DNA from: Lama glama
Taxonomy: Eukaryota
Direction of reading: 5' to 3'
Length of the DNA: 64,000 nucleotides
Assembly (NCBI GenBank): GCA_028534125.1
Contig: CM052816.1
Location: 36,644,001 to 36,708,000 of the forward strand
Shown here: positions 6,283 to 42,716 of the stretch, in pieces
Layout: every line of letters starts with the position of its first letter
Numbering within the stretch: position 1 is the stretch's first letter
Translations under genes and position numbers: made by a program
The notes under the pieces: model-generated
Databases searched by the model: none
What the model was told of the DNA's origin: nothing
What the model saw: only the letters and a program-made list of their open reading frames with translations

Positions 6283-8869
6283 TGACAGAGACTCTTCTAG
6301 ACCAAACTCTAGTCAGGCTCCTCGCCCTCTTCTTGACGAGGACTCAGTCTTTCCTTATTAAAAACTATTTTATGAACAAGATTAACATACGGAAATCAGC
6401 TGTCTTTCTTTACACTAACAATGAAACACCACAAAAAGAAAGTAAAGAAACAATCCCTTTTAAAATTGCATCCCCAAAAATACAACACTTAGGAATAAAT
6501 AAATAGGTGAAAGACTTATACATGTAAAACTATAAAACATTGATTAAGGAAATCAAAGATGACTTAAAGAAATGGAAGGACATCCCATGCTCTTGGATTG
6601 GAAGAATTAATATTGTTAAAACGGCCATACTGTCCAAGGCAGTCTATAGATTTAATGTGATCCCTATGAAATTATCCAGGATATTTCTCACAGAACTAGA
6701 ACAAATAACCCTAAAATTTATATGGAAACACAAAAGACCCAGAATTGCCAAAGCAATACTGAAGAAAAAGAATGAAGCTTGAGGAATAACCCTCCCAGAC
6801 TTCAGACAATATTATAGAACTATAGTAATCAAAACAGTGGAATTGGCATAAAAACAGACATACGGATCAATAGAACAGAATAGAGAGCCCAGAAATAACC
6901 CACAGACCTACAGTCAATTAATCTTCAACAAAGGAGGCAAGAATATACAATGGAGAAAAGACAGTCTCCTCAGCAAGTAGAATTGGGAAAACTGGCCAGC
7001 CACATGTAAATTAATGAAGTTAGAATACCCTCACACACCATACACAAAAATAAACTCAAAATGGCTTAAAGACTTAAACATAAAACAAGACATAATAAAC
7101 ATCCTAGAAGAAAACATAGGCAAAATATGCTCTGACAAAAATCTTAGCAATGTTCTCCTAGGGCAATCTACCCAGGCAATAGAAATAAAAGCAGAAATAA
7201 ACAAATGGGACCTAATTAAACATATAAGCTTTTACACAGCAAAGGAAACCATAAGTCAAACAAAATGCAACCTACGGAATGGGAAAAAATATTTGCAAAT
7301 GTTGTAACTGACAGAGTTTTAATTTCCAGAATATATAAACAGCTTATATAACTTAATAACAACAACAACAAACAACCCAATCCAAAAATGAACAGAAACC
7401 TTAAACAAGCAATTCTCCAGTGAAGACATACAACAGGCCAATAGGCACAAGAAAAAAGGCTCAATATTGGTAATTATCAGACAAATGCAAATCAAAACTA
7501 CAATGAGGTATCATCTCACACCAGACAGAATGGCCATCATTCAAAAATCCACAAATGATAAATACTGGAGACGGTGTGGAGAAAAGGGAACCCTCCTACA
7601 CTGCTGGTGGGAATGTAGTTTGGTGTAGCCATTATGGAAAACAGTTCAGAGATTCCTCAAAAAAACTAAAAACAGACTTGCCATATGATTCAGCAATCCC
7701 ACTCCTGGGCATTTATCCAAAGGAAACTCTAATTCAATGCAATCTGCACCCCATAGCAGCACTACTTATAATAGCCAAGACATGGAAGAAATCTAAGTAT
7801 GCATCAAAAGATTACTGGATAAAGAAGTTGTTGTATATTCATACAATGGAGTATTACTCAGCCATAAAAAAGAATGAAGTAATGCAGCAACATGGATGGA
7901 CCTGGAGGTCATCATTCTAAGTGAAGTAAGCCAGAAAGGAGAGAAAAATACCATATGATATCATTCATATGTGGAATCTAAAAAAGAAAAAGAAAAAAGA
8001 GGACACTAATGAACTCATCTACAAAGCAGAAATAGACTCACAGACATAGTAAACAATCTTATAGTAACTGGGGAAGAGTACGGAAAGGGATAAATTTGGG
8101 AGTTTGAGATCTGCAAAGGTTAACCACTATATATAAAAATAGATTAAAAAAAGAAATTTCTTCTGTATAGCACAGGAACTATATTCAATATCATATAATA
8201 ACCTTTAATGAAAAAGAATATGAAAATCAATATATGTATATACATGCATGACTGGGACATTATGCTGTACACCAGAAATTGACACATTGTAACTGACTAT
8301 ACTTCAATTAAAAAAACAAAACAAAACTTGTATCAAATCAGCACTTATAATTTTATGGATACCATCACCACACCCTCTTCATACACATACACATATACAT
8401 AATAAACTTGAAAAAGACTAACATAGTTGCATTGTTTCTAACAGCTCAAGATCACATCCCTAGGATGACCCTAGTTCCCTTTAAAACACCTGCCTGAGAA
8501 AGCTTAGTGCTGCCAAAAGAATTTACTGTTTGCTTTAGCCAACACTTGAACACTGGGCTTCTGTCTCCCAGTCCGTGGGACGGTAGAAGCCTAAGGTCTA
8601 GAAGCATCAGTTAGCACACCCAGGTGGTCTAGACACATTGACCAGCACCCACCACTTCCTGCTTTTTATGAATTTCCTCTTCTCTGACTCTGCTCAAGCA
8701 CCTGCAGTTTTCCCTCCTTTTTCTCCCACTTTACCTTTAAAAAGTTGTTCCTTCTGCAAAGATGAAGGGTGAATTCAATTTATGGGGGATCATCTTACCA
8801 ACTGCAATAATTACAACTGAATAAAATGTATCTCACTACTTTAGTGTCTAGCTTAGTTTCTCTTCGACA
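6283..8869 (+). mobile_element. ERV1 solo LTR (MER31/MER67/MER90/MER110-like), split by an L1 insertion
   Basis: Starts tgacagagactc..gaccaaactctagtcaggctcctc, resumes at ~8400, has aataaa at 8820 and ends ttcgaca; 4-bp flanks tggg/tggt. Confidence 0.75.
6367..8327 (+). mobile_element. 5'-truncated L1 (ORF2 C-terminal half + 3'UTR + A-rich tail), relatively young camelid/cetartiodactyl type
   Basis: ORFs 6540..6782 ([17 protein letters not shown]), 7014..7307 and 7555..7920 are L1 ORF2p fragments; tail at 8310-8327; short TSD aaaact at a TT/AAAA site. Confidence 0.97.
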
Positions 8870-9309
8870 TGGTCCATGTAAGAAATGAAGATTAGAGGCA
8901 CAGTGTTCACCACTCAGAAAAAGTTAAGGAGATGCCTACCCTTGACTAAGTGCTTGAGCAGGAAAAAATAAACTGTAAGAAATTACTACCCCAAAGTTCA
9001 TAAATCATGTTTTTTTTTCATTACTTAGAATTTCGAACTAGAGAGAAATAACTCTGTACGAGATGAGTGCAAGATAAAAATACTGCATAAAAAAAAAAGG
9101 AAAAAACCTGAATAAGAATGAAAATAATTAAGGACCCACTGAATGAGAAAAATTAAAACAATATGAAAAAGACCACAAAATAAGTATATTTGAAAATTAA
9201 AGTTAAATTGAAAGATAAAGAAGTATAGGACTATATGCAAAAGAAGAGATAATTTTGGGACAAAAGCAAAATAATGTTCCTAAACTTGAAAACACAGTGA
9301 CTACACCAT

Positions 9310-12510: not shown

Positions 12511-13925
12511 CCGGAAAGACATAGGAATGCAGAGAGACAATGCCCAAGTGAATAAATTCTTTTTTCTTTCAAAGCAACCTTTTTTTTTTTCTTTAATGAC
12601 TTGATAAAAAGAGTAGTGTTAGCTAGGGAATAAATGGACAGGCAGAATGATTCCTTTTAAAAGAAAGTTCCGAGATTTTATTAGCATTTTACTGAGATTT
12701 TTTTCTATGCCTAGTGCTTGGGAGAAACACATAAAATTAAATTATATTATTACTTAGCCCATAACTGGGCTTATAGTGTGCTGATGAAGTTGACTAATAA
12801 CTTCTGTGTTTGTGTGTATGCGCTTGTTAATTCATTAAGTTTCAACTTCATTAAGAATTATTTTCAGAGTAGCAAAAACTACTAGCTTTAAGTAGAAATT
12901 TTTTAAATCAGAGAGCATGAGAAACAAACTTATTTATTTGCCTAATATAGAAGAGACAAGATACGTATTTAAAGTGTCATTTCATCTTCGTATTTCAACA
13001 TAAGTTAATTCAATAACTGTAGAAGAAAACCTCTAGAAGTAACTCCCAATTTGTGGTTTTATGATCAGTCTGTAACTAATAATTCAGTCTCCAGAAATAA
13101 ATATTGAAGAAAATCTTCACAAAACATCACAAAATATACTTCAAAAAAATTGTTGTCTACTTTCTCTCTGGTTCCACATGTGCCCTGCCAAATAATTTAC
13201 AAACTCTAAATAATACACGTGTATAGAAAAAATTATATATATATATATCGAAAGTGAAAACTACACTCAGAAGTTTTACTGGTCATCAAACTGGTCCTTT
13301 AGATTACTTGTTTTGGTGTCCCCTTACTCAATGAGAACTTAAAATATATTTGGATCTAGATTCTGTGTGGTATGGATCCCTCAGTCATGAATTTCTACTG
13401 GATTCTGTGCTGATCCTTGAGAAAGATCACCTAGCACCAGAAGCATTTCTGAAGGCCCAAAGGGCGTTTGTGTCATCATTAGAAGCAGATTCATACAGTG
13501 CAGTATCTACCTCTCAGAGGGGCAGGGTTTTTGTGACCCTCAGCCTACTTGACTAATCTTTCTCTCTACATGAGGTGCTCTCAGACTCCCGTATCTCTCA
13601 GAGACACAACCCAACATTCACCTGCTTCATGCCTGTTTAAGGCTATCTGGTCTCCTTCCCTGGAAAGTCTGTTCCCAGGAGGCCAGAAGACAAGAGGCCC
13701 GCTGTGAGTTCATACAAGTGTAGTAGCTTACTGAGCCCAGAAGGGAAGACTGCCAGTTCATACCCACTTGGCGGCCTGCCCTGAACCCTGCAGATTATAA
13801 TTAGGTGCTGTCATTGCTATACTGAAACCTGGTGTCTCTGGTAATAGCTCTGAGAGGACAAACAGCATAATGTGTAAGGGAACTGACCTCTGTGAGGCAA
13901 ATGTTGATGAATGAGACATGGAAGC

Positions 13926-14406
13926 TGTGAATGAAAAATACTGCAAACCGTATCAGTAAACAAAGAATGCTGAAGCCATCAAGTCATCAGTTGCTGCCGC
14001 CACCCCCCACAGTGAAGACAAGCCTGCAGCCCAGCCTCTGCAGCCACTCACAATGGTGCCCTCTCAGGGGACTCAGAATAATAAAGGACAAGATACTGGC
14101 CCTAGATAGCTAGATGCTTGTCAAAGGAATGAATTCAATGAGTCCAAATGTTTGCTTCCTCCCATACATAGAAAAGCACTAAATTCTTTAACTTGTGATG
14201 CCTGTTTTTCTTTAGATAACATGTAATCTTTTATTGTTCCAACTACCTGGTCTTTGTGTTGTAAAGCTCCTATATATCTTAGCTATTCTCCTAACTCTTA
14301 GGAGGAGTCTCTCAGAGCAATCTGAGAGGCTATCATCCCAGTTCAAGTCCTCCGGCCAAATAAAACATAACTCAACTTTCAGGCTGCACATTTATTTCAG
14401 TCGATG
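13926..14406 (+). mobile_element. ERV1 solo LTR (MER34/MER39-related, artiodactyl type)
   Basis: Starts tgtgaatg; TATA-like cctatata; aataaa at ~14359; ends ttcagtcga; 4-bp flanks aagc/aagt. Confidence 0.8.
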
Positions 14407-25365: not shown

Positions 25366-25982
25366 TGTTAGGCAGTTAGATAGAAATGAGCCCTGGGCAA
25401 GGGGAGAGGAAGGGGGAGGGAGCAACCCAGAAAATAACAGTATAGCTGTGCTAAGGATAAGAGGCTCCAAGAACTTTCACTTTCTCTAAATGAGGGCCAG
25501 CAAAGAAGCCGGCTAGAATAGAATGCTGCGGCTGCAGTAGAGAGAAGGACCAGGCTTAAGTTGACCCAATGCTCATTATAATGTAATTAACATTACAGTT
25601 TGAACCCCTTCCTGTAGGTTTCTCTGTGTGCATTATGTGTAAAAACATGTGTAAAAGAGATGAGCGTGCCTGAGCACAAGGAACCTGAGCTGTCAGTCAG
25701 CCTGAGAACTCAAAGAACATGAGTCATCAATCAATCAATCAATCAATCAAGAAAATGCCCCTAAGCTAGGATATAAGAAAAGGAAAACAAAGGTGCACTG
25801 CCATTTTTCCTCTCCTGGGTTGGCCCGCCCGCAATTCTCAGGGGTGTACTATATTTTACCACCTTTCTACTTAACTAATAAAATCTTCTGTTTATATCAC
25901 ACTCTCTGTCTCCTGTTAAACATTCATTTTTGGGGGGTGACTAAGAATTGAGGTAACTTTTATTCCCTTCCTCCTGGTAACA
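25366..25982 (+). mobile_element. Solo LTR (probably ERVL class)
   Basis: tgtta...taaca inverted termini; TATA-like atataag at 25771; aataaa at ~25877; no clean TSD. Confidence 0.75.
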
Positions 25983-26629
25983 GTGTCACTAAAACTATCC
26001 ATAAAGTTATTCTAATACAGTCCAGGACTTTGAAAATGAGTAGAAATGTACCATATTGAACTTGAGCAGAACTGAAAAATCAAATATTGCTCATGATAAG
26101 CAGAACTGCTTCAAAACGAAATTAGGATAAAGGACAAGATATTTAAAATAAAGATAAGTAATACTGCTGGTTTAAAAAGTTACCCATTAATTTTTTATTT
26201 ATATGTCATAAATGTTACCAATTGTAAGTTTAATAGAACTATGTATTAGTTGTCAACATCTCAAAATATCTTTAGATAGATTCAACAAGCAAAATAAAAG
26301 ACTGAGCAGCAAAGGACATTCAGCTTCTCATTTTACCTGAGTTTACACATGCAATTTTAAGAGAACAGATGATAAGGCATGCCTGACATTATTTAGTAGG
26401 ACAACAAGTTACAGTGGAGGTAAGAAGGAGTTCAGAAAATGGTCTTGACTGATTAGCATGCTTAAAAACCTCTGTCTGCCTGAACAAACAGAAAAATATG
26501 GAAATCAGTAATGCCAATTGGATAATTCAATAGTGATGAGAATCAGATCCACTACATCTAAAAGAAAACACATAACAGTAATTAAAAGGAAAAAAAATGC
26601 AGAAATCTCAAAGACTAAGCTACAAGGAG

Positions 26630-26740
26630 ATGTTTACTTAGTATGTCTCCTGTGCCAAGCCCTATTTTCAGAGCTGGGGGATACAGTAATAAATGAGATA
26701 GACAGAGTCCCTATTCTCATAGAAATATTTTTGGGCAGGC
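26630..26740 (-). mobile_element. L2 3' end fragment
   Basis: ctgtgccaagcc..gctggggatacagtaataaatgagatagacagagtccct. Confidence 0.7.
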
Positions 26741-27736
26741 ATAGAGTGGTTGAAGTGCAGAGACATTTGGGAGTACATAGCTAATAAACTACCAAATTAT
26801 AACTTCAAAGAACAACAGCATAAAAGGAACATGATAATTTTATAGTGGGAAGTGGAAAAAGAAAACAAAATGAGACATGAGTATGAATAATTTGTTCTGG
26901 GGTTGAAATGACTTTTTTTGGAAATAAGAGTGTTAAAAGTAGTTTTGTAAGCATAGTCCAAACTGACTTGAAGTGCATGAAAATAACTGGAGGCTGTATT
27001 CTGGGAGTAATTTAAGGTGGCAAAAGTGAATAGTGAACTGAGGCAAAGAATATAAACTGAAACTTCTCAGGTGGGTATTAAGTATATTATATATTCTTGT
27101 TTCTACTCATTCTTTAGAATGTATTCTCCAGAGGAATATATTCTCTAGAGGGGAATATGGAAAAAGAGACACTAGACATTTTAATTTAGAAATAATATTG
27201 GAATTTAATAATAAATGTTAAAATATTGGATTTAAAATATTACTGATCAATGGCCTTTTTAGAATACTTGTAGTTTTAATAAATCAACTTAAGTTCTTTC
27301 ATATTACGATCTAGGCACTATACTAAGATTTTTCATAAACACAATCTTGTAAAGGCTTTGAGAGAATTTATAAACCAGTAGAAATGAATGATTGCTAAAG
27401 TTAGAACACAGCAAATATCATACGACAAATATACAGTATTGTAGGTATTTGAGTTGTGATAAAGGGCATCTTTGATGTTTCATATTCGTGAAGAATGGAA
27501 TATGGCTTCTAAAATATTTCTGAAGTGTGTGATATATAGTCAAATAGGAAACACATTAAAAGTTAAACATGAGTAGTTGAAAGATTAATAAAAATCAGTC
27601 ATAAATGCTTAATACTGACATATGAACATGCACATGGGATAAAGTATATTTTGAATGTATGAGATATACAGTCAGATATAGGCTTTATTCTTTTTTATAT
27701 ATAAAGAATTGATTACCAAAAAAGTGATTTACTTAC

Positions 27737-27794
27737 CAAATGGGTTCCAAGTTTTTGTTGAAAATATTTGATAACTGACTTTACATTATAGTAT
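27737..27794 (-). pseudogene. Pseudo-exon (58 nt, phase 2 to 0), open
   Basis: Boundaries tttctatttcttattcttaattatag|a and ttg|gtaagt; reads YYNVKSVIKYFQQKLGTHL. Confidence 0.72.
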
Positions 27795-28464
27795 CTATAA
27801 TTAAGAATAAGAAATAGAAATGTAAGATCTAACATTTCTCCAAAGACTATTATACAGCACATTCATGAAAATATTGCAAGATCAAATATTACACTAATGG
27901 GTGTTTGTTCAGGAGTACTCATAAAACAAAAGAATAAATTTTATTCTCTTGTCAGGCAGTTTGAAAAATAGCTTTCATGACTAAAGTTATTATCTGATTA
28001 ATATGCTCAGCCTTTTATTTTTTGACCATCAAACTAGTGTCCACAATACGATTTTTAAAGCCCCTATATTTATAAAAATGATTTACTAAGTTATACTTGT
28101 TACTAAAAGTAAAGCATAAATATAGACATTGTGGATGCCAATTAATAATACCTTTTAACTGTTAATTAATTATATGTCCTAATTATGCAATTTTCATGTA
28201 CAGTACTTATACTAATTAGATAATTAGAATATGTGACTAGAACTTTGCTGTAATATACAGAAAGACCTTAACATATTTTAGACAGTAAAAAAAAAAAAAA
28301 AAGAAAGAAACACATAATCATCCAGTCTTTTCCTAAATAAGGATAATAGTATCTTAAAAAGAGATTAAATACTATAGTACAAATGAAGGTAATAGTTTCC
28401 AAAGAATCTTTCTGGATACAGTTTTTGTGTATATCCTCATAGAAAACACAAAAAATAAGTATAC

Positions 28465-28649
28465 CTCCCACACACACAATATAGGAATCCCAACATTCTC
28501 TGTAATATTATCAGTACTATTATCTCTGTAAAGATTATAAGTCACTTTGTTGTACTCTCTTTGAAAACATATCATCAAAATTCTGATGGGTGAAAAACTC
28601 AAAGTCAAGATGGCAGGAAGTGGAGACAAAAGTTAAGAGCTATATATTC
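28465..28649 (-). pseudogene. Probable first coding pseudo-exon (185 nt)
   Basis: Branch point actaac (28673-28668), pyrimidine tract and ctacag| acceptor; donor gag|gtatac; ATG at 28570 gives MFSKRVQQSDL and the neighbouring frame gives STDNITENVG. Confidence 0.6.
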
Positions 28650-28829
28650 CTGTAGACAGAAAAGTTGGTTAGTTACCAATGGACCTCCTTTTTCCTACTA
28701 ATTAAATCCCTAGAAAATATGTATATTTTTCACAGAACATTGAACAACGTTAGATATGACAGAGGAAGCTCCTGAAAGGTGCTCTCACAATGTCTAGGCA
28801 ACTATTATCAACTACTGCTGAAGTCATTA

Positions 28830-30170
28830 GGTGAATGAATGGTTGAAGAGGAACTTTATAATAGATCAGATTGACAACTCCTGAATCTAATAATCATTCT
28901 TAAATCACTACAATTGAGGTAACTACACACCATATATTACCTAATATGATACAATATAAATTACACACAGTACAATAATATATTCTTGTCAGGGAAGGGG
29001 AGGCGGGAAAAATATGCACAAAAATACACCTGGATCTAACTACCAGTTTATAGGCAATATGAAGGATAAAAGTTCATGTTAAACTATGCTATGAAGCAGT
29101 AATCAACCAAATCCAAAGTTTGGAAAATTCTAAGTAATTTCACACACAATTAAGCAGCATCAACCATTAAATAACACAACAGAGAAAAATGTAGATGGCT
29201 AATGGTTATAGAGTAAAGGGAATTTAACATACAGAGCAACTAAATAAAACACATGAAACTTCTTTTGATCCTGCCTCTATCACAATTGTAGAAGACATTT
29301 TTGAGACAATGAGGAAATATCAGAAATTGAGTAGGTATTAGATCACATTATAGAGTTATTTTTATAAGATGTTATTTTGTTTCAGTTATTATTAAACAAA
29401 TGTCTTTACCTACTGAGATACACACAGAAATATTTGTAAGTGGAGTGATAGGAAGTCAGATTTGCTTAAATATAAAACTGAAGCAAATAAACACAAGAAA
29501 AAGTTTGGGTATGTATGTTGTGGGGGAAGGAAGGGAGACAGATAATACAACAAAATGTTGATAATTGTGGTAGGTATAGGAGGCAGAAAAATGACTAACC
29601 CCACCCCTAAAACAGATCCAGGTCTTAATTCCTGAAACCTGTGAATATCTTGTTATACGGCAAGGGAAAATCAAGGTTGCAGATGAAAGTTTGCTCATCA
29701 ACTGACCTTGAGATGGGGGAATTATTCTGGAAGACCCTGCAGCACAGAGAAGTGGGAGGTGGGGGAGACAATGTATCATAAGGCTCCTTATAAGTAGAAG
29801 AGGAAAGCAGAAAAGGTAAAACTAGGGAGATGGCAAAATGAAAAAGACTTGGCCTGATGTTGCTGGCTTTGAAGACGGAAAAATGACACCATAAGGCTGT
29901 AGAAGCCTCTTGAAGCACAAGAAAACATATTCTCCCCTAGAGTCTCCAAAAAGGGAATATAGCCCTCATTTTTAGCCCAGTGAGATTCATTTCTGACTTT
30001 TGACCTCTAGAAATACTAAATGATAATGTATGCTGTTTTAAACCATCAAATTTCTGTTACTATGTTACTGAATCAATGAAAAAATAATGTACTAGGTTAT
30101 GGGTACATGAGTTTCATCATTCTTCCTGCTTTTGAATTTATTTTAATTTTTCCATAATAAAACTTAAAAA
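28830..30170 (+). mobile_element. Ancient L1ME 3' region, split by MLT1
   Basis: ggatctaactaccagttt, gagatacacacagaaatattt and tttccataataaaa motifs. Confidence 0.75.
29575..30091 (+). mobile_element. MaLR solo LTR (MLT1D/E-like)
   Basis: aaggttgcagatg, tgctggctttgaagacgga and ttctcccctagagtctcca motifs; 5-bp TSD gtagg/ctagg. Confidence 0.88.
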
Positions 30171-30783
30171 AATTAAGATTCTGAAAATAATTTTTATTAC
30201 CAATTTTGTGATTAAAGTCCAATAGCTCAACAGCAAAAAGCTTAATTTAAGGACATATGAAATCTAGTAAATAATATGACTGATTCTGAAGATGCCCTTT
30301 ATATATAATCAGAGATGTCACAACGTAGTATAATTATTTGAATTGTGTGGCATTGTTAAAGAGTAAGAAAAGAACTGAAAGTGTCTTCATGACAGATTTG
30401 TGGTCACATTTAAAGGCAAATATATCAAATTGTATTGAAACACATGATGAGATCATCAATTAGTAGGTCACAGATGGTATACTCTTTGTGCCACTTTGTA
30501 ATGAACATTCACTATTAATTTTAGAATTTTGTTAAGTGAAGCATAGTTAAAATAACAAATCTCTCCATAAACACCACCTTTTTAGACCAAAAAGTCAAAG
30601 AGGGATAACCTATTATTACCTTAAACTGCAATTCAATGTTGTATTTTATTTAATAGAGATAGTGTCTCACAAATATTTTTATCTGTCATAATGGGAGATT
30701 GTGACTTTTTTGAAGGGTAGGTCTTTTTTTTTTTTATCTGAAAAACAGTTCTCTACATCCTGAAAGAAAATTAATTTGATTTC

Positions 30784-30784
<1 letters not shown>

Positions 30785-30820
<36 letters not shown>
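30785..30820. repeat. (AC)18 microsatellite
   Basis: Directly visible. Confidence 0.98.
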
Positions 30821-30824
<4 letters not shown>

Positions 30825-30889
30825 CTACTTCACAGTACAAATGGAGATTACGTAATGACATTTTCCCTTTAAAAGCCATTTAAAAGTAA

Positions 30890-31508
30890 TAATAAACGGT
30901 GACAGGTGATGTCGAAGCAAATACTTTTTCTCTAGGATACTTCAAAAACGGATAAACTTACCTAAGACGGTTCAAATTTCTCCACTGCAGCCGCTGTAAT
31001 TCAAGACTATCTGTGGTAAACTCAACCTACTTGTTCAGCCTTAAAACAAATTTTAATTCACCGAGGTCTCACACGGGACCCAGTTCGGTTTAAGTCGGAC
31101 CCACTTTGACCTGGAGCAGCCTAGTTTCTAAGTCGGATTCATTCTGACCCCGGAACTGGTTCTGTTTCTAAATTGGACCCACTCTGACCCCGGAACCAGT
31201 CTGACGTTTTCGTCAGACCCAGTCAGACTCCAGCGGTTTCTGGTTTCGGTCAGAAAAGGAAGTGCAGTCAGACTGTAGGGGTTTCTGGACTCAGTCAGAA
31301 ACAAGAAGTGCTCAGATAAAGTCCGAAAGCTCATAAGGCAAAAGCTGCAGAGCTGAAACCGGGTTTCTGAGAGAATAATGTACCCATCAGCTCCTGAGGC
31401 GGCAGGAAAGCGGGGCGCTCAAGCGGCTCGAAGGTACCTCAGCCTGGTTGTTCGTTGCTTTGGGGGCCCTCAGGGGTCTCCTCTGGCCCCTTCTTTTGAT
31501 ACCAGAAC
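30890..31508 (-). mobile_element. ERV1 (MER4-group-like) 5' internal leader with degenerate PBS and gag-like remnant
   Basis: PBS-like tggtatcaaaagaagggg (31504-31487; 12/18 match to tRNA-Leu PBS tggtgtcagaagtgggat) 4 nt after the LTR; 31020-30970 reads FTTDSLELQRLQWRNLN. Confidence 0.7.
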
Positions 31509-31815
31509 TGGTAAAAGATAAACTGAAGTATATTAAAATTTTTAAGAATTCATCTGAGCAAAATATCTGTTTGAGTCGGCTGTGCCAAACCGGTAGTGGT
31601 TACTCGCGCTCCACCTGACGAGAGCTCCGGGAGAGACTGTTACAGAGAGACGGTGGACGCAGAGTAAGGAGATTGTTGATTGGCTGGAGCTTGTAGCCTA
31701 GCTGGCCTTTGGAATCGGTTCTCCTCAGCGTTTTGGTTTCACGACCTTGAGGCATTTACGGGCTTAGATTTTGGTTTGCTTACAGTAGGCAGCCAAGGTA
31801 TTAGAGCCACGTCAG
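30897..31815 (-). promoter_or_regulatory. CpG-island-like candidate promoter and first exon
   Basis: About 37 CpGs in ~920 bp (manual count); CCAAT at 31683-31679; CRE-like TGACGTGG at 31814-31807; donor TTAG|GTAAGT at 30962/30961. Confidence 0.55.
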
Positions 31816-31846
31816 TGAATGGCCTCCCTGTTTAATTAATGTGACA
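31509..31846 (-). mobile_element. ERV1 5' LTR (LTR31/MER72-like)
   Basis: Minus strand tgtcacattaattaaacagggaggccatt..gtaagcaaacc..agccaatca..tcagtttatcttttacca; TG..CA ends. Confidence 0.82.
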
Positions 31847-31992
31847 GACCAAATTTAAAATTAGTTCCTCATCACTGACTTTCAAAGCAGGATTCAGACT
31901 TTCTTAGGCAGTTCTAGTCTAAATAAATTTACAGTAAGCCGCTGAGGTAAAAGCATTTTGAACTTCTGGAAACAGGTGATGATAGTGGCAGT

Positions 31993-32092
31993 NNNNNNNN
32001 NNNNNNNNNNNNNNNNNNNNNNNNNNNNNNNNNNNNNNNNNNNNNNNNNNNNNNNNNNNNNNNNNNNNNNNNNNNNNNNNNNNNNNNNNNNN
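31993..32092. other. Assembly gap (100 N)
   Basis: Run of N; true size unknown. Confidence 1.
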
Positions 32093-33169
32093 AAACATTA
32101 ATAAAAATTAAAATAATACCAAAACAGTACTTTTATTATAATTGTCTTACGCCATAATTGTGACTTTGTGACTGAAAATGTAACAAATTATTTACAATTT
32201 TACTCTTACCTAGTTCATTTTACAAGAATAAAAAAAATCTCATCAAAGTAATAGACGGCAAAGGATGAGAAATAACTTTTAAAATTGGTAATATTAATGT
32301 GTCAATATTAGTAATTCAGTTTTTACTAAGAAATTCCATATACAAGCTGTGTACAGTAGCAGTCAAAATGACCCTAATGAAGTAAGCAATGATTCTTCTC
32401 TAAAAATATAACTGAACTCATACATCTGAATGGGTTGTTATCTTTAATTTTATAATTGCCTTTACATAATAAAGCAGCATTTTAATATTCATAATTCATA
32501 CCCTTTGTTGAGGGTAGGTTTTATTTGTATTCATATTCAAAAGTCTTTTGGAGTCAGGTCAACATACATGTTTCAGACAAACCACTTTTTCAGTGTTGGC
32601 TCCATGATGTAAAGGAATAAGACTCTCGTTTATCTTTTAAACTACAGAGAAACTAGGAAAACAATTTACAAAGTAAAACATTATTAATTTCTTGTTGACT
32701 TTTATAAATTGAGTGATCTGTTGAGGTGTAACATTTTTTACCAAAATAGATAGCTTTATAATAAAAGAAAATGACTGATTCTCCTAAGTTCATTAAAAGG
32801 AAAGAAAAAACAGGACTACAACTACCTAAGGAATACAGTTCATAAATGTAGAAACAGTTGTTTAACAGATCACAGTTACTACCTATTTATACTTTTCTCT
32901 TTTTCTTTCTATCACCATATTTCTCTCTATTGCTATATTTATGTCCTATCTTTTTATTAATAGAGAAGACCACTGTTGTTATGATGAATATTCTGTAAAT
33001 TCATTGAACACTACTTTTTCAGTTAATAATACATATATATTTTACTATATTATAATTTTAAAATTTTTTTACTTATTATTTTAAACTATTTTTTAGCTTC
33101 TGTATGCTAAAACTGCTTTACCAAACCTGAATTTTGTATATGACAAATACATAAAATAGTACCTGTAGG

Positions 33170-33860
33170 TGTAGGAGAAAAATTAGAAAATTGTGGTGTC
33201 ATTGAAGTCAAGAAAGACTCAAGAAGAAGGAAATGGCAAGTGGTGTTAACCAAAATTTACTCAGTGTAATGAAGTTATTGTTAACTCCCTGGAAAATGGT
33301 ACAAAACTGAAAATCATAAGGGTTGCCATCCAGTGGATAAAATAGATACTGAAGTAAGATAATGATGTTCTGATAAATTGACATATGGAAATATAAGGTG
33401 CCATTAAAATTGTCACAGGGCTGAAATTTTATAGAATTTTTACATTTATAATTTTTGAATATTCAGAGATGATGTGACTTGGAGACATTCTTCGAGGTTG
33501 GTGACGTGATGTTGATGGATTACATTCATAAGAATGGTTTCAGTCAAGTGGTCAGATTTAAGTTTCATAGGAAGGGGGTTGCTGAATTAGAATAAATGGG
33601 AGATAAGTGTGTAGAATGTATTTTAAAATTTTGTCTATGAAGAGAAAGAGAGAATAAAAAAAATGGTATCAGCAGCGGTTTGAAGTTCCTAGTAAGCTTG
33701 TAAAACATGTAACGATAATAGATTGAGTATGTATGTAAAACATGTAATGGTAATAGACAAGGAGATGATGGACTTGAGAATTGGTTATGAATTCTTGTGG
33801 AATAAGAGGATGATTTAGGATGTTGGATAGGGACTGTAAGCAAGTGCCAAAGTCTGAAGT
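33170..33860 (-). mobile_element. L2 fragments
   Basis: gtggtgtcattgaagtcaagaaaga..tcaagaagaagg and related purine-rich antisense L2 motifs. Confidence 0.6.
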
Positions 33861-33863
33861 AAA

Positions 33864-33926
33864 TGTGTGTATGTGTGTGTGTATATCTCTGTGTGTGTAT
33901 GTGTGTGTGTGTGAGTGTGTGTGTGT
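33864..33926. repeat. Imperfect (TG)n microsatellite
   Basis: Directly visible. Confidence 0.95.
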
Positions 33927-35026
33927 CAGAGTGGAGGTGGGGCAAGGTATTGGATGGTGGTAATGGTGATGCAAGATATTAAGGGTGACAACTTGGGCAC
34001 ATAAAAACCAAAAATATTTTAGGTAAATATACTTTATGTATTTCCTTGTGATAGTAGTATTTTCTAAGTCATTTGCACTGTATGAGATTTAGCCTTCCTA
34101 AAGACAGCAATGCATAGTATTCCGTTTTCTTCATAAATAAAAATAATTGTACAGAGATAACACTCACCAGGAAGATACATTATAGATCATACTATGGTTA
34201 AAGATTATCTCTGATTCATTGTATAAGTAGTAGATACTCTGTTAAATTGGGTATTAGACAAGCCCAGAGTTGAGTAAAAGCTTAGTTGGAAATATGTTGC
34301 TTTCAAATAAATATCCTCATTTAATTTTTATCTCTATTTGAAAAGTATTAGAAAAAGAAAAATTATGTTAAAAACTACCATGGTGTTACCTTTTTATCTC
34401 AAAATCTTCCTAATTATGGTTTAGATATTGAGCAATATTAAAGGTCTGTCATCACTGCAATTTGTTTGGCAGCAGTAAGACTTCAGAAGGCAGATAAAAA
34501 GCTCATAATCCTGTTATTAGACACACTAGAGCTTTATTGTAACATAAATAAATTTTGCAATTTCTGATTTTTTGAAAAAAGTTTTCTTACTACATTTATA
34601 ACATTAATAAAATTTTAAATCAGAAGCATGTTCTACTATTTTATAGTATCATTAATTTTTTAAAGAAATGCCAAGGAGTATAATATTGTACACATATGTG
34701 GTTTACCAACCAGTTTAAGATATAAAGCACGTAAGATATCAAAGCTCCTTTAAAACTCCCTAACTCATTTTTTTGCCTCTTCATCCTCCCTCCACAAAGG
34801 CAGGTATTATTTTTAATTTTTCATATTCATATATGTTCTCAAACATTTAGTATGTATGTGTCCATGAACATTTTATATTTTTGTATTGCAGATTTTCAAG
34901 TTAAATGCTTTATAACAAATTATTTTGTGTATTTTGTTTTTTCAGTTATTTAGTTTATGACAGTCATCTATGTTGACAGTGTATCTCAAGTTCAAAATTT
35001 TCATCAATTATTTGTATTTTATTATA

Positions 35027-35300
35027 CATTTGGCCCTTGAAGAATGCAGAAGTTGGGGCATTGATTCCCCAAGCAGTTGAAAATCTGAATATAAATTTTG
35101 ACTCCCCCAAAACTTTACTAATAGACTACTGTTGACTGAAAGCATTTCTGATAACATATGTAGTGAATTAACACATATTTTGTATGTTATATGTATCATA
35201 TATGATATTCTTACAGTAAGGAAAACTAGCTAAAAGAAAATGTTATTAAGAAAATCATAAGAGAAAGTACATTTATAGTATTGTTTTATTTATCAATATT
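35027..35300 (+). mobile_element. Tigger2/MER8-like DNA transposon end
   Basis: ta|catttggcccttgaa..ttttgactcccccaaaact..aaaatgttattaagaaaatcataag. Confidence 0.85.
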
Positions 35301-36460
35301 GTAACATCATCTGTTTACAAAATGAATCATCTGTCAGTATGTATGTCAATAACATCTTACATGATACAAAAATATTGTAGATGTTATATGTACAAAACAC
35401 GGCCCAGATTGTATATGTTATTATAAAATAATGACTCTCTTCTTGAAAGTATATTTTGTCTAATAGTAATCTGGCTATACCATTTGTTTTCATTACGTTT
35501 GATTGGTATAATTTTGTTATGTATTTTTACTTCCAGTCATTCTTTATCATTATGATTATGTTTATAAATAATGCAAAGTTGGTTTCTGTTTCTTTTTCAT
35601 CTACACTTATCACTTCTGTCTTTTAACTGGAAAATTTGAACTATTTACATGTATCACAATTATGGATGTTTTTGACTTATGCTAAAACCTTTATTGTTAT
35701 CCTATCATTTTTCTGAATCTCTTTTGTTGCCTTCTTTGGATTTAATACATTTTTCTTTTTTTCCCTTCAGATGGTTTTAAAATGACATACTCCATTTTTA
35801 TTTGTATGTATTTGTGTTTAACATATATATGTTGACATAGCATATGTGTGTATATGCATATATACACACAGACACATGCACACATACGTACACATTCACC
35901 ACTGTTTCATCAGTCTTAAGAAATAAGGGAGGCTGTTATAACCTTAGAACTTCTCAGAACTGAGAACTGTTATTGTCTCACATGTTATTGTTTTATGTAA
36001 CATTTTGCTTACATGTTATATTTCACTCCCAAAGTATCTTGGCTATCATTAAAATTTTATATTTAATATGTTTATATTACCTACATATTTATCAAATCTT
36101 TTGCTCTTTATTTCTTCCTATGTTTATTCCCCTCTTTCTTTTCTTTATGTTATTCTAGTTTATATTTCCTAAAGCAAATTCTTTAAACATTTATTTAGTG
36201 AAGACTAATTAATGGTAAAAATCTGTCAATTAACATTTGTCTAAATTTTCTTTATTTCATTTTTCATTTTTTAATAAATTTTATAGGTATAAAATTGTGG
36301 ATGACAGTTATATTCTTTCTGCATTTTAAGAGCTTTTTCTCAGAGTTCTTATTATTCTATTCTTGTTATAGTCTATTCTTGCAGTTGATAGTCTGCTGTC
36401 AATCTGATCATCATAATTTCCACTTAAACTGCCTTTCCTTTGTAGCTGATTTAAAATCTT

Positions 36461-38930
36461 CTGCTTTAAAGAGGAGTTTTTAAAGATGGTGATATAGGAG
36501 GCTCCTGAACTTACCTCTTCCCACAAACACATTAAATGTACAGCTAAACACAGAGCAGTTCTCTCTGAAAGAAATCCAGAAATTAACTGAATGATTCCTA
36601 GACAAGAAAAGACCTACATCAAAATAGATAGAAAGTCTGGGTTGTCCACATAAGTAAAAGTGGGAAGAGTTCATCACCACTAGACCAGACTTGTAAGAAA
36701 TATAAAAGGGCCTTCTTCAAGATAAAAGAAATGAACTCTTGTTAGTAAAAGGAAAACATACGAAAATAAATCTCACTGATAAAGATAAATACATAGTTAA
36801 ATTCAGAATACTTTAATGTTGTAATGGCGGTGGGTAAATCACATATAAATCTAATATGAAGATTAAAAGACAAAAGTAATAAAAATAACTATATAATAAT
36901 CTGTTAAGAGTTAAAAGTAAAAAAGTAAAAAGATGTGATTTGTGGCACCAAAAACATAAAATGTGGGGGAGCAGTGGTAAAAATATAGAGCTTTAGTATG
37001 TACTTTAACTTAAACAGTTATCTGGTTAAGATAGACTATTATAAGTAGTTTTATGTATGTCTCATGATAACCACCAAGCAAAAATGCATAACAGATACAC
37101 AAAGAGGAAGTAATCCAAGCATGCCATGGATTTGTGATGTGTGATGAAAACATCAGATCACAAAGGAAAAAATCAGGAGGAGAGAGTAAAAATAAAGATT
37201 ACAAAATAGCCAGAAAAATTCACAAAATAGCAATCATAGTGCATAGCTATCAATAAACATTTTATGTAAGTTAACTAAATTCCTGAATCAAAAGACATCG
37301 AGCCTTCTTCAAGAAACAAAAATCTCAAATAAACACCTAACTTTATTCCTCAAGGAACTAGAAAAAGAAGAAGAATGAAGCCTAAAGTTAGTAGAAGGAA
37401 ATTTGAAAAAAGTCACAGTGGAAATAAATAAAATAGACACTAAAAAGACAACAGAAAAGATCAAAGAAACTAAGATGTGGTTCTTTGAAAAGATAAAATC
37501 AACAAACTTTTATTTAGATTCATCAAGAATAGAAGAGAGAGGACTCAAAGTCAGAAATGAGAGAGAAGATCTTGCAACTAATATCACAGAAATGCAAAGG
37601 GTCATAAGACACTACTATGAACAACTATACTCAACAAGTTGGAGAACTACAAGAAATGGTAAAGTCCTAGAAACTCACAGCTTATCAAGACTGAGTCAAT
37701 AAGAAAAAGAAAATCTGAACAGACTACTTACTAGAACCAGAAGTCTTCACTGGTAAATCCTACAAAACATTTAAAGAAAAAGTAATACTAATTTTTCTCA
37801 GACTTTTCCATAAAATGGAAAAGGGAATACTACAAGCTAATTTTACAAAGCTATTACTTCCCTGACACCAAAGCCAGGTAAGGACACTAAAGAAAAAGAA
37901 AACTAAAACAATATCCCTGATGAATATAGATGCAAAAATTGTCAACAGAATATCACCAAACCAAATTAAACAGCATACTAAAAGGATCATACACCATGAT
38001 CAAGTGGGATTTATTGCTAGAAATACTAGTCAATCATATATCTGATAAGGAGTTAATATCCAAAATACATAAAGAACTCATACAACTTAATAGCAGGGAA
38101 ATAAGCAATTTGATTTAAAAATGGGCAAAGGAACTAAACAGACATTTTCCAAAGAAGACATACCTGGCCAACAGTTACATGAAAAGGTGTTCAATATCAC
38201 TAATCATCAGGAGAACATGAATCAAAGCCACAGTGAGCTATAATATCATGACTGGAAGGGTAACTGTCAAAAAGGCAAGAGTTAACAAGTGTCACCCAGG
38301 AGGCTGAGACAAAAGAATTTTTATGTACCGTGTGCGAAAATGTAAATTGGTGTAGCCACTGTGGGAAGGAGTATGGAGGTTTCTTTAAAAATTTGAAATA
38401 GAATTATCTTATGATCTATCAATTCCACTTCTGGATATATATATCCAGAGTAAATGATAACAGGATCTTGAAGAGATATCTGTACTTCCACAGTCATTGC
38501 AGCATTATTCACAATAACAAAGATACCAAAACAACCTATGTGTTTGTTAAAGGATGGCTAGATAAAGAAGATTTGAGATATATTGATATAGATATAGATA
38601 TATTATTTATCCATGATAAAGAAGGAAACCCTGCCATTTGTGACGCATGGACACACACCTAGATCTTGAGGGCATTATGCTAAATGAAATGAATTAGACA
38701 GTGAAAGACAAATACTGTGTTATATCACTTATATGTGGAATATAAAAAGTCAAACTCATAAACAGAGACTAGCTTGGTTATCAGGGATTCAGGGGATTGG
38801 GCAATGAGGAGTTTACTCAAAGTGCACAAACTTCCAATTTTAAGGTGAATAAGTTCTAGGTATTTAATATACAGCATGATCTATAATGATATTTAATAAC
38901 ACTGTATTATATACTTGGAATTTAAAAATA
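36461..38930 (+). mobile_element. Internally deleted L1 (L1MA9-like) retaining 5' end, ORF1 end, ORF2 pieces and 3'UTR
   Basis: 5' aagatgg..ggaggctcctgaacttacctcttccca; ORFs 37403..37702 and 37930..38118 are ORF2 pieces; candidate TSD taaaatctt (36452-36460 / 39114-39122). Confidence 0.88.
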
Positions 38931-38935
38931 AAACA

Positions 38936-39113
38936 CAGTTGGCCCTTGAATAATTTGGGGCTAAAGGGGGCCAACCCTCCATGCAGTCAAAAATTCATGT
39001 GTAACTTAAGCTGGCTCTTTGTTTATGTGGTTCCTCTGTATCCACAATTCCACATTCAACCAACTGTGAATCATGTAGTACAGTTCAAACTCATGTTGTT
39101 CAAGGGTCAACTG
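38936..39113 (+). mobile_element. Short Tigger2-family MITE
   Basis: TIRs cagttggcccttgaa / ttcaagggtcaactg, followed by TA. Confidence 0.9.
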
Positions 39114-41554
39114 TAAAATCTTTTTGTCTTTGGCATTTTAAATGCTTATTTCCATTTATATAAATATTAATTATTGTTCATGCTGTTGAATATCTTGATA
39201 CATATTTTTAATTCTGGAAAATTATCACCTATTATCTCTTTTCATTCTGTCTCTTCTATTTTCCTTTCTATTTTTCTGGAACTCCTATTATCATTCTTAA
39301 ATGTCTCTTTTCCATGTTTTTTGAATTTTTATTTTTCATCAGTCTTTCATCTGTGATAATCTAGGTAATTTCTTCTGTTTTATTTTCGAGCTGAGGTTTT
39401 CTTTAGCTATATCTAAACTGTTTAATCCACTGAACACATAATTTCAATAATCATATTTGTATTTCAAGAAGTTCTTGGTAATTCAGATAATATACTTTGT
39501 AATTTGAGGAACTTGTTCTGCTATTTTCTTCCTTCTCATATTTTTATTTTTACCTTTATCCACTTAATTTTTAAATATACATTTTATACTCTATATTGCA
39601 CAATTCTATTATCTGAAAATTCTGGGAGTCTAAGTCTTCTTATTCTTTCACAGTAGCACATTCATTTTTGTGTTGACTAATTTTTAATTGTGTGTTCATA
39701 TCTGTTAAGCTTTATATATAGTAATTTTGTACAGTTACAGTTGAGGGTCATTGTAAAAATAAATTGTCTTTGCTTTTGGTTGGCACCCCAAGGATCTTCA
39801 AAACTATAAACTCGTGAAAGATAAAATCTTTAGTTACAATTTCATAGGTAGGTATTTTCCAACTGGAGTTTAGAACAAGCACATAATTTTTCTTGTTATA
39901 CTCTCTACTAGCAGTAGATACCTCACTTCTGGCATTATTCTGGCATTTCAGTTCGGACTTTGTACTTTCATGGACCCCACCAAGGCTTCAATTCTTATAC
40001 TGATACAGCCATCAGTGTACAAATTCTTGAACACAAATATTGGGGAAGATTCTCAAGTTAACCACGTTAACTTCTAACTAACAAGTTTGGTTTTGGCTTT
40101 CTTTTTATTTTTGATACCTGGTGATTTTCTTTACTTTTTTGTGAGGTAATTTTTATAACTGTGGGGATATTTATAATATTTTAACCAGCATTCATAAGTT
40201 TCTTTTAAGAGAAGTTTATTTGAACTACTTATTCTGTCATATAATTTAGTACTCTTACCCTGTATATGTGTGTGCTGTGTCATTGAACATTTTTCCTGAT
40301 CAACAAAACCAGTATTAACTTAATTGATGGGAAAAAAAAGTCACCATAACTCATACATACTAGTAAGCATTATTTGATGGAGTAGAAAATTTCCACGTTG
40401 TAGTGGCTTTAGTAGGTGAAAAATAGACAAATGGGCTTCAAATGTCATTTTGAACTTTCCTTAAATTATTTTAAAGATTGTGTTTTAATTTAGGAAAGAA
40501 TTCCTCATAGATTCTTAAAAGAGTCTTTGAAATATAGGCACTGGCTATATATGGAACAACACCTAAAAAATTAAAGACAAAATAAGATTATCTGTAATTT
40601 CAGCTCCAGAGGAAAGAATATTAATAAAAACCTTTTATGGATGGTACAAAATGAATATTTGAACTCCTCTACAGTGTCTAAATTCATTTTTTTAAATGAG
40701 TAGCATAACCTAAGTGAGAGAAAAAATAATACAATAAATAATACAATAAAAAAAAAAACTTCCCTGAGTGCTCCTTTGTTTCTTTTCCATTTTATTTTAT
40801 TTCCATTTGCTCTTAAATCACTAATCACCTAATTTCCAAAAGCCACAGTCAATACTGAAGTCATTTACTAGCCTGATAGTCTGAGTCTCATATGCCACAT
40901 TACATAACTATATATGCCAATATAATCAAAATCTTAATGAAACCCAATTAAGCTGTCTGTGCTGTGGCTCTTCAGGTATCTTGTCTCTTTATTATAGAAG
41001 TCAATCGCATTTGTTAAGCTCTTTATACATCTGAACTAAGCCAAGAAATATTTAGCTAAGTGATGTTTTATTGAGATCCTGGGAAAATAAACCAACTCTT
41101 TTCTCTATATTCTTAATTTTTCTTCTTTTCTCCACCTATTTTTTTGTTTGTGTTTGTTCTAACTTGTGTAAAAGTCAAGTTTGGTTCATTTTTACTATTA
41201 TAAGAAATATATGAACACAAGAGTGCATAAATTATATATGTCATTTAAATAATAAGTACTAATGAATATCCATATAACCATCACCTTGTGAAAAAGAGAA
41301 CACTTTTGGAACCCTTGAAGCTTGTGAATGGTCCTCTTCCAAAATATTTCTTCTTGAAATTAGTACTCTCCTGTTCTCTGTTATAATAATCCTTTGCTTA
41401 TCTTTTTAATTTTACTGTTTATTTACCAATTTGTAACACTGTTTCACTTTGCCTGGTCTTAACTCTATGTAAGTTATTTTTACTATGTATAAGTGTGTGC
41501 CTTATTTCTTATGCTAAATATTTATGAGCTTGTTTTATATTGCTGGATACTGCC

Positions 41555-42126: not shown

Positions 42127-42716
42127 TGAAGAGGTTCAAAACATTTTATACTCAGAATATGCCACTTTGGTATAGTGATTATTTTGAGCGTGATGGCACC
42201 AGAGAAACAGCAGATGCAGAAAGGATTCTCTGATCTTTCCCTTTCTACTTAAAAGCAAGTCACAAAATTAACCATGAGAAAGATACCTTCTCTGTACCAG
42301 GAAAAGAACATTCTTATCACTGGAGACAGAGAAATGGTACCAAGTTTGACCTGTACAAATAAATCTATTAAAATAACCCTTATCTTCTATTAACTTTTCC
42401 TATATATTTCCTAGTCGCCTTCTCACAATTTACTAGTCCCAGCCCAAATATCTTTGTCTTGTCATTTCTCCACAAATTTATCATTTCTTTGTTAAAAGTA
42501 TATATTAGCTCTTGGTCCTAACTGGTTGTTCAGGTCTTCGTTTTCCGTATGAAAATTCCTTTGTGCACACAAAGATATTAAGTAGCATTTATGTGCTTTT
42601 TCTTTTTTCTTTCTTTTTTTTTTTTTTTTTTACTGTAAACCTGTCTTAGGTAAGTTTAATTCTCAGGCTCAGCCACAGAATCTAAGAGACTGGAAGTACT
42701 TTTTTTCTCCCCAATA
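42127..42716 (+). mobile_element. ERV1 solo LTR (MER34 family)
   Basis: aatatgccactttggtatagtgattattttgagc..cagcagatgcagaaagg; tttt flanks on both sides. Confidence 0.85.

What the first reader, a model, noticed from the sequence alone, without database searches (positions are those of the whole stretch)
30897..31846. Old ERV1 LTR+leader that is a CpG island with a perfect splice donor, pointing into the fossil gene
Seen: about 37 CpGs in ~920 bp, against about 4 in the 480-bp LTR at 13926. The element is nonetheless decayed: PBS 12/18, no AATAAA left in the LTR, internal region truncated near 30890. It has CCAAT and CRE-like TGACGTGG in U3 and a minus-strand TTAG|GTAAGT donor at 30962/30961, 2.3 kb upstream of a strong acceptor at 28649. 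Knowledge: methylated old LTRs lose CpG, whereas germline-unmethylated promoters keep it. Inference: this is a co-opted, probably germline-active promoter and first exon spliced to the LRR-IQ exons.
Basis: partly seen in the sequence, partly recalled or inferred. Interest (0 to 1): 0.8.

Follow-up and report, generated by a model that had tools for sequence, protein, structure and literature searches.

The report
Old retroviral LTR kept CpG-rich
The front end of a dead retrovirus is the only CpG-rich spot in 64 kb of AT-rich mammalian DNA and carries an intact splice donor, so it likely stayed unmethylated in the germline and probably starts a non-coding RNA, a known kind of reuse; no trace of the proposed downstream protein gene was found.

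Summary
30897-31846 has 37 CpG (o/e 0.68, 6.4 expected), no TpG/CpA excess, and is the window's only CpG island by the 200-bp rule. It is a 338-bp minus-strand 5' LTR, a Leu-type primer site with 12 of 18 matches, a repeat-bearing leader and a top-ranked donor. The decayed primer site argues for age, so the kept CpGs most likely mean germline hypomethylation. Strand skew flips sign near the element in 7 of 8 masked settings. Promoter use and splicing are untested: no RNA reads could be laid. All five ATG frames close before the donor, so any RNA is likely non-coding. The 'LRR-IQ fossil gene' got no support from Pfam, PDB, phmmer, ESM or motif scans. Against: flanks show no CpG shore, no sister copy could be fetched, and this scan judged a similar case in another genome family-wide (e1-8043598). 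Verdict: probable LTR-derived non-coding promoter, a new member of a well-known kind.

The parts
31509..31846 (-). 5' LTR of an ERV1-type element, 338 bp, TG...CA ends, 13 CpG (o/e 0.75); MER57-like by recall only
   Evidence: sequence; counts; no second copy in the window
31807..31814 (-). CRE-like TGACGTGG in U3
   Evidence: unique on the minus strand of the window
31679..31683 (-). CCAAT box; at the usual -60/-100 spacing it would put a start near 31620-31580 (inferred)
   Evidence: spacing from PMC12065363 passage
31549..31554 (-). decayed poly(A)-signal look-alike about 40 nt before the LTR end (4 of 6 matches); no canonical signal in R
   Evidence: sequence, motif scan; assignment inferred from position
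31487..31504 (-). decayed primer-binding site, Leu type, 12 of 18
   Evidence: reference type from PMC4724089 supplements
30963..31508 (-). retroviral leader, 21 CpG (o/e 0.61), with diverged repeat units (45 bp x2 at 82%, 31220-31311; a 47-bp pair at 74%)
30956..30965 (-). consensus splice donor, last exon base 30962; probably the element's native major donor (inferred)
   Evidence: chance of the exact 8-mer in 950 nt is 0.013
30897..30955 (-). last CpG-bearing stretch; the internal region breaks off about here, no gag/pol/env and no 3' LTR
28645..28675 (-). candidate acceptor (first exon base 28649) with a CTRAC branch point; use untested
31994..32093 (.). 100-N assembly gap about 150 bp upstream of the LTR; content unknown

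Best explanation
This is the 5' LTR and leader of a truncated ERV1-type provirus that has kept its CpGs, likely because bound transcription factors keep it unmethylated in the germline, and it probably starts a spliced non-coding minus-strand RNA at its own retroviral donor. Shown: the LTR, primer site, leader, donor, CpG excess, lack of deamination products and closed reading frames. Inferred: old age from the decayed primer site; hypomethylation from age plus kept CpG; binding of NF-Y and CREB/ATF/ETS-type factors from motifs; a start near 31620-31580; read-through of R because the poly(A) signal has decayed; splicing to an acceptor downstream (28649, or 30067/29786/29736). Untested: transcription, tissue, junction, function.
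For: 37 CpG against 6.4 expected; 7 of 7 other LTR-like pieces in the window have o/e 0.00-0.26 (boundaries by eye). TpG+CpA o/e 0.96, below all 65 background tiles (minimum 0.98). Primer site 12 of 18; P(6 or more mismatches) 0.006 at 10% and 0.0002 at 5% divergence. CCAAT, four CRE half-sites (4 of the 12 in the window), two ETS-type CCGGAA and a GC box lie inside the element. Composite minus-strand skew is +0.04 below and -0.07 above the element; the best change point falls at 30.2-33.2 kb in 7 of 8 masked settings; minus-strand G+T exceeds 0.5 in 3 of 3 lower bins and is under 0.5 in 3 of 3 upper bins. This is the sign expected from germline transcription or an origin (PMC2927911, PMC3320577, passages). 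All 5 ATG frames stop before the donor. Precedents: ERV1 LTRs start nearly half of human oocyte LTR-initiated transcripts (PMC6102241); MER57E3 is promoter-like and active in testis (PMC9122532, PMC12947407, 10.1101/2020.03.11.987230).
Against: No RNA, CAGE or methylation data were examined. No CpG shore: 8 CpG against 8.3 expected in 3 kb of flank, although sperm-hypomethylated islands have shores of 1.5-2 kb (PMC4509998). The skew result depends on by-eye masks: unmasked the change point is at 18.0 kb in 4 of 4 settings, one masked setting gives 21.9 kb, the GC component alone breaks at 21.9 kb and has the wrong sign at 20-31 kb (-0.05), and the permutation ignores autocorrelation (lag-1 0.10-0.32). 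Skew upstream of laurasiatherian CGI genes is near zero (PMC2927911), so the upstream -0.07 is not what a one-way promoter gives. Age rests on 18-24 bases. CRE half-sites rise with CpG content alone. A donor is normal in a retroviral leader (established knowledge), so it does not show selection.
Confidence: 0.5

Rival explanations
1. Family-wide protection: most copies of this LTR family escape germline methylation by their sequence, so this copy is CpG-rich without being a meaningful host promoter; any RNA is noise.
For: CpG excess stops at the element's edges. MER57 subfamilies are bound by NF-Y as a class (PMC12065363).
Against: It does not explain the skew flip near this copy, if that is real. 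No sister copy was available to show the pattern.
Confidence: 0.2
2. The insertion is younger than it looks: a camelid-specific, CpG-rich element that has not yet decayed and is methylated and silent.
For: Sharp CpG boundaries, no shore, no TpG excess all fit youth. At 5% divergence a start o/e of 0.83-1.12 would suffice.
Against: Primer site 12 of 18, no poly(A) signal, no TATA match, repeat units 74-82% alike, internal region and 3' LTR lost.
Confidence: 0.12
3. One reading: the LTR became the promoter and first exon of a transcript that runs through the decayed exons of an old LRR-IQ gene.
For: A few minus-strand stretches look LRR-like by eye (22084-21896, 19909-19705, 19636-19460, 12656-12385). 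Exon-like units with an open frame number 16 of 80 on the minus strand below the element against 6 of 56, 2 of 38 and 5 of 57 in the other three sectors (units overlap, 5 of the 16 lie in one repeat).
Against: No LRR or IQ family hit in 30 + 45 + 30 minus-strand Pfam queries; nothing in phmmer (sent in a frame other than the most LRR-like one), three word searches, four PDB searches or two ESM searches; motif counts at or below shuffles. AATAAA at 28019 and 27945 could end the RNA right after the 28649 exon.
Confidence: 0.1
4. Passenger: the true promoter or a germline replication origin lies next to the LTR (for example in the 100-N gap) and keeps it unmethylated, as MER57E3 copies sit about 1 kb downstream of ZNF starts.
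For: The gap begins about 150 bp upstream; 6 of the 8 masked change points fall at 32.4-33.2 kb, just beyond it; skew is negative upstream, as at an origin (PMC3320577); MER57E3 geometry (PMC9122532).
Against: Both gap flanks are AT-rich and CpG-poor (1 CpG in 145 bp, 2 in 354 bp), unlike island shores.
Confidence: 0.08

Closest known systems
LTR-initiated transcription units (LITs) of mammalian oocytes (PMC6102241; passages read)
   Same: LTR at the 5' end, ERV1 class common in non-rodents, element-encoded donor splicing into downstream sequence.
   Different: LITs are defined by RNA data, which is lacking here; most start in solo LTRs, whereas the donor here is in the leader, about 550 nt past the LTR; long-term CpG retention is not part of their definition.
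Human MER57E3 (ERV1) promoter-proximal elements (PMC9122532, PMC12947407, 10.1101/2020.03.11.987230; passages read)
   Same: Old ERV1 LTR with promoter-like marks, low methylation and testis activity; the window LTR resembles the MER57 group by my recall and shares the Leu primer type given for MER57 (PMC4724089 supplement).
   Different: MER57E3 is called primate-specific and lies about 1 kb downstream of ZNF gene starts; this one is in a camel-family genome (earlier notes) with no coding gene detected in 64 kb, and it keeps a leader and donor. No PAR-bZIP palindrome lies inside the LTR.
Transposon-derived CpG islands (PMC4509998; passages read)
   Same: A retroelement creates an island in CpG-poor DNA.
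   Different: Hypomethylated islands there have sloping shores; none is recorded in flank CpG content here.
CRE-bearing, methylation-sensitive LTR promoters such as mouse IAPLTR1/1a (PMC9729108; passages read)
   Same: CRE-like site in U3 that would work only unmethylated.
   Different: IAP is young ERVK with a full TGACGTCA; here an old ERV1 with half-sites.

Membership tests
ERV 5' LTR plus leader | TG...CA-bounded LTR followed within a few bases by a TGG-starting primer site | tested here: met
   31846-31509, then 4 nt, then 31504-31487
ERV 5' LTR plus leader | 3' LTR, target-site duplication and gag/pol/env | tested here: not met
   no second LTR copy, no retroviral Pfam hit: a truncated remnant
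MER57 group (ERV1, MER50-like) | Leu primer site | tested here: met
   12 of 18 to Leu(CAG); 2 of 2 HERV sites with the same first 8 letters are typed Leu; MER57 is typed L. A poor match; Leu is not exclusive to MER57
MER57 group (ERV1, MER50-like) | alignment to a Dfam/Repbase MER57 LTR model | not testable with these tools
   no repeat library; short motifs of the window absent from three papers' supplements; label is recalled
MER57E3 | primate-specific, beside ZNF gene starts | tested here: not met
   camel-family genome by earlier notes; no ZNF or other gene domain in 150 of 179 ORFs scanned
CpG island | 200 or 400 bp, GC 50%, o/e 0.6 | tested here: met
   790 bp from 31056, GC 0.50, o/e 0.65
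CpG island | 500 bp, GC 55%, o/e 0.65 | tested here: not met
Co-opted LTR promoter / LIT | capped transcript starting in the LTR and spliced from its donor | not tested
Co-opted LTR promoter / LIT | unmethylated in germ cells | tested here: inconclusive
   indirect only: CpG kept, no TpG excess, no shore, age argument
Co-opted LTR promoter / LIT | this copy differs from sister copies or is conserved in orthologs | not testable with these tools
   no genome held; 0 viral hits and 0 of 6 metagenome hits were true copies
LRR-IQ (LRRIQ-type) pseudogene downstream | colinear exons with LRR and IQ similarity | tested here: not met
   these searches are weak on frameshifted fossils, so absence is not shown

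The most novel reading that the evidence does not exclude
An ERV1 leader-donor cassette landed at, or replaced, the promoter of an ancient gene lost in this lineage, and has acted so long as a germline promoter or replication origin that it flipped the strand composition on both sides while keeping the dead gene's exons transcribed as a lncRNA.
Probability: 0.1. Interest if true: 0.55.

Novelty: new member of a known kind. Interest (0 to 1): 0.3.

Why it matters
If right, it is a lineage-level example of an old ERV1 front end that supplies a ready-made promoter and first exon in a gene-poor region, readable from sequence alone through three footprints: kept CpG, missing TpG and a skew flip. 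LTR promoters of germline non-coding RNAs are known in large numbers, so one more changes little unless the RNA has a function or rescues a lost gene, for which I found no evidence.

Tried and rejected
RNA runs: 9 of 21 listed runs, RNA or guessed RNA from 3 studies, hold 0.05-0.21 of the words of 27600-31900; four are labelled reproductive system. First exon alone would give 0.14, plus two small exons 0.19, the whole element 0.22. None was laid, so this is a lead and not evidence; start, strand and junction stay open. Sister copies: no genome held; 0 hits in viral contigs; 6 metagenome hits, none aligning beyond the motif, five without any alignment and all with bacterial-like CpG; no look-alike in earlier findings. 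Second leader copy at 42638-42658: 20 of 21 bases match the donor region, but it lies at the end of a separate solo LTR (MER34-like by recall), so I dropped it as proof that the donor is native. Shared-CpG test on leader repeats: one pair only, 0 shared, 1 decay-type, 3 other: uninformative. CpG shore: absent. LRR-IQ gene: see rivals. PDZPH1 as the local fossil gene: literature listing only, no PDZ or PH hit. Rfam on 26000-40000: 0. GC-biased conversion in the element: cannot be polarised without relatives, no claim. Literature: searches (2 and 4 listings, not opened) showed nothing on this locus; one search found 0 papers; listing only. Supplements of the bioRxiv paper are closed and figures are not held, so published MER57 sequence figures were not seen.

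Full report
Observation. The window is about 31% GC mammalian DNA; earlier notes place it in a camel-family genome, 4.76 Mb before a CHD1 finding (unchecked). The stretch 30897-31846 holds 37 CpG at GC 48%, o/e 0.68, against 4 CpG (o/e 0.19) in the LTR at 13926-14406. Background o/e is 0.117, so 6.4 are expected (p 1e-16); the richest other 950-bp window has 8. It passes the 200-bp and 400-bp island rules (790 bp, GC 0.50, o/e 0.65), fails the 500 bp/55% rule, and no other 200-bp window passes.

Anatomy. On the minus strand: a 338-bp TG...CA LTR (31846-31509), four bases, a primer-site-like 18-mer (31504-31487), a leader with diverged repeat units, and a donor after 30962 that ranks 4 of 3254 GT sites. 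No second LTR copy and no retroviral domain remain. The primer site matches the Leu(CAG) type in PMC4724089 supplements at 12 of 18 by my count; both HERV sites there that start with the same eight letters are typed Leu, and MER57 is typed L. The MER57-like label comes from my recall; no repeat library was at hand, and short window motifs were absent from the supplements searched. MER57E3 itself is called primate-specific (PMC12947407), so I do not file it there.

Is it old? A fresh provirus has a near-perfect primer site and a poly(A) signal (established knowledge). Six mismatches in 18 have probability 0.0002 at 5% and 0.006 at 10% divergence; the 95% interval is 13-59%. A gapped reading by hand still needs about five events. 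The poly(A) look-alike at 31554-31549 matches 4 of 6. With an assumed 4- to 10-fold CpG rate, a methylated copy at 13% divergence would have needed a starting o/e of 1.1-2.5 to show 0.68 today. The deamination products are missing too: TpG+CpA o/e is 0.96, below all 65 background tiles (mean 1.20, sd 0.10, minimum 0.98) and below 7 of 7 other LTR-like pieces (1.02-1.33), whose CpG o/e is 0.00-0.26 (boundaries by eye). So old and spared from methylation is the best reading, but age rests on two dozen bases, and sharp edges without TpG excess also fit youth.

Is it a promoter? Inside the element lie a CCAAT box, four of the window's twelve CRE half-sites, two CCGGAA and a GC box; there is no TATA match. 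CCAAT spacing of -60/-100 (PMC12065363) points to a start near 31620-31580. CREB1 binds only unmethylated CRE and drives LTRs (PMC9729108). An independent footprint is strand skew: with repeats masked by eye, TA+GC skew on the minus strand is +0.04 below and -0.07 above the element (37 against 35 blocks, rank test p 0.0009), the best change point lies at 30.2-33.2 kb in 7 of 8 masked settings, and G+T is over 0.5 in all three lower bins and under 0.5 in all three upper bins. That sign fits germline transcription away from the site or an origin (PMC2927911, PMC3320577). Against it: unmasked the break is at 18.0 kb in 4 of 4 settings, one masked setting and the GC component alone give 21.9 kb, GC skew at 20-31 kb has the wrong sign, autocorrelation is ignored, and upstream skew should be near zero for a one-way laurasiatherian promoter. 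Flanks show no CpG shore (8 against 8.3 in 3 kb), whereas sperm-hypomethylated islands have one (PMC4509998). No RNA reads were laid, so start, strand, tissue and junction are untested; the unlaid word shares are listed under tried and rejected.

Where would it splice? The acceptor at 28649 ranks 83 of 3795 by a rough matrix; those at 30067, 29786 and 29736 score higher, but 28649 alone among the 14 listed has a CTRAC branch point. No good donor follows it within 750 nt (best 4.9), and AATAAA occurs at 28019 and 27945, so it may open a last exon. All five ATG frames in the LTR and leader (51, 3, 18, 68, 4 codons) close before the donor: the product would be non-coding. The exact donor core has a 0.013 chance in this stretch, but retroviral leaders carry one natively, so it does not prove selection.

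The fossil gene. The finding gives no coordinates for the LRR-IQ exons. I scanned minus-strand frames over most of 1-31950, two L1 blocks and 13.4-14.4 kb left out (30 queries), 45 short frames and 30 ORFs against Pfam: no LRR or IQ family. Four PDB searches, three word searches, one phmmer job (not in the most LRR-like frame) and two ESM searches gave nothing usable. Motif counts were at or below shuffles. Of 179 remaining ORFs on the plus strand and the upper minus strand, 150 were scanned; 2 hit, an L1 reverse transcriptase piece and one sub-threshold match. A few stretches look LRR-like by eye. These tools are weak on frameshifted fossils, so the gene is unsupported, not excluded.

Rivals. 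Family-wide protection is the main one: this scan judged a similar ERV island in another genome to be shared by most copies (e1-8043598). I could not test it: no genome is held, and scans of viral and metagenome contigs gave 0 and 0 of 6 true copies.

Comparison and verdict. It would work like the LTR-initiated transcription units of oocytes (PMC6102241) and like promoter-type MER57E3 copies active in testis (PMC9122532; 10.1101/2020.03.11.987230); membership in either is unproven or not met. Of all papers I read search passages only, plus supplement search hits for PMC4724089, PMC9122532 and PMC12947407; PMC5753468 served for family names. Searches listed nothing on this locus. Verdict: a real feature, most likely an old LTR kept unmethylated and probably a non-coding promoter (0.5); new member of a known kind; interest 0.3.

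Noticed in passing
window 30.2-33.2 kb: Composite strand skew changes sign near the element after masking repeats; could mark a germline promoter or replication origin older than the LTR.
   Followed up: partly
window 31994-32093: 100-N assembly gap about 150 bp upstream of the LTR, AT-rich on both sides.
   Followed up: partly
window 30846-30856: Perfect PAR-bZIP-type palindrome just past the element's truncated end; the pattern occurs 10 times on the minus strand, so it may be chance.
   Followed up: no
window 31199-31218: Two CRE half-sites face each other as a perfect 8-bp inverted repeat with a 4-base spacer in the leader.
   Followed up: no
window 42150-42700: Solo LTR (MER34-like by recall, 4 CpG) whose end holds a plus-strand consensus donor at 42649, 20 of 21 bases like the leader donor region.
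   Followed up: partly
window 8330-8950, 13400-14406, 25380-25985, 29600-30060; L1 at 6.0-8.3 and 15.3-18.5 kb: The LTRs and two long L1 pieces below the element appear to lie on the plus strand, antisense to the proposed RNA, as is usual inside transcription units; orientation by eye and AATAAA position.
   Followed up: partly
window 22084-21896, 19909-19460, 12656-12385, 27794-27737 (minus): Exon-like or LRR-like stretches by eye; the 58-nt unit at 27794-27737 has good splice sites. No database support.
   Followed up: yes
window 4800-3950 and 2620-1400 (minus): Purine-rich stretches whose frames are rich in K, E and S, like decayed large coding exons; no Pfam hit.
   Followed up: partly
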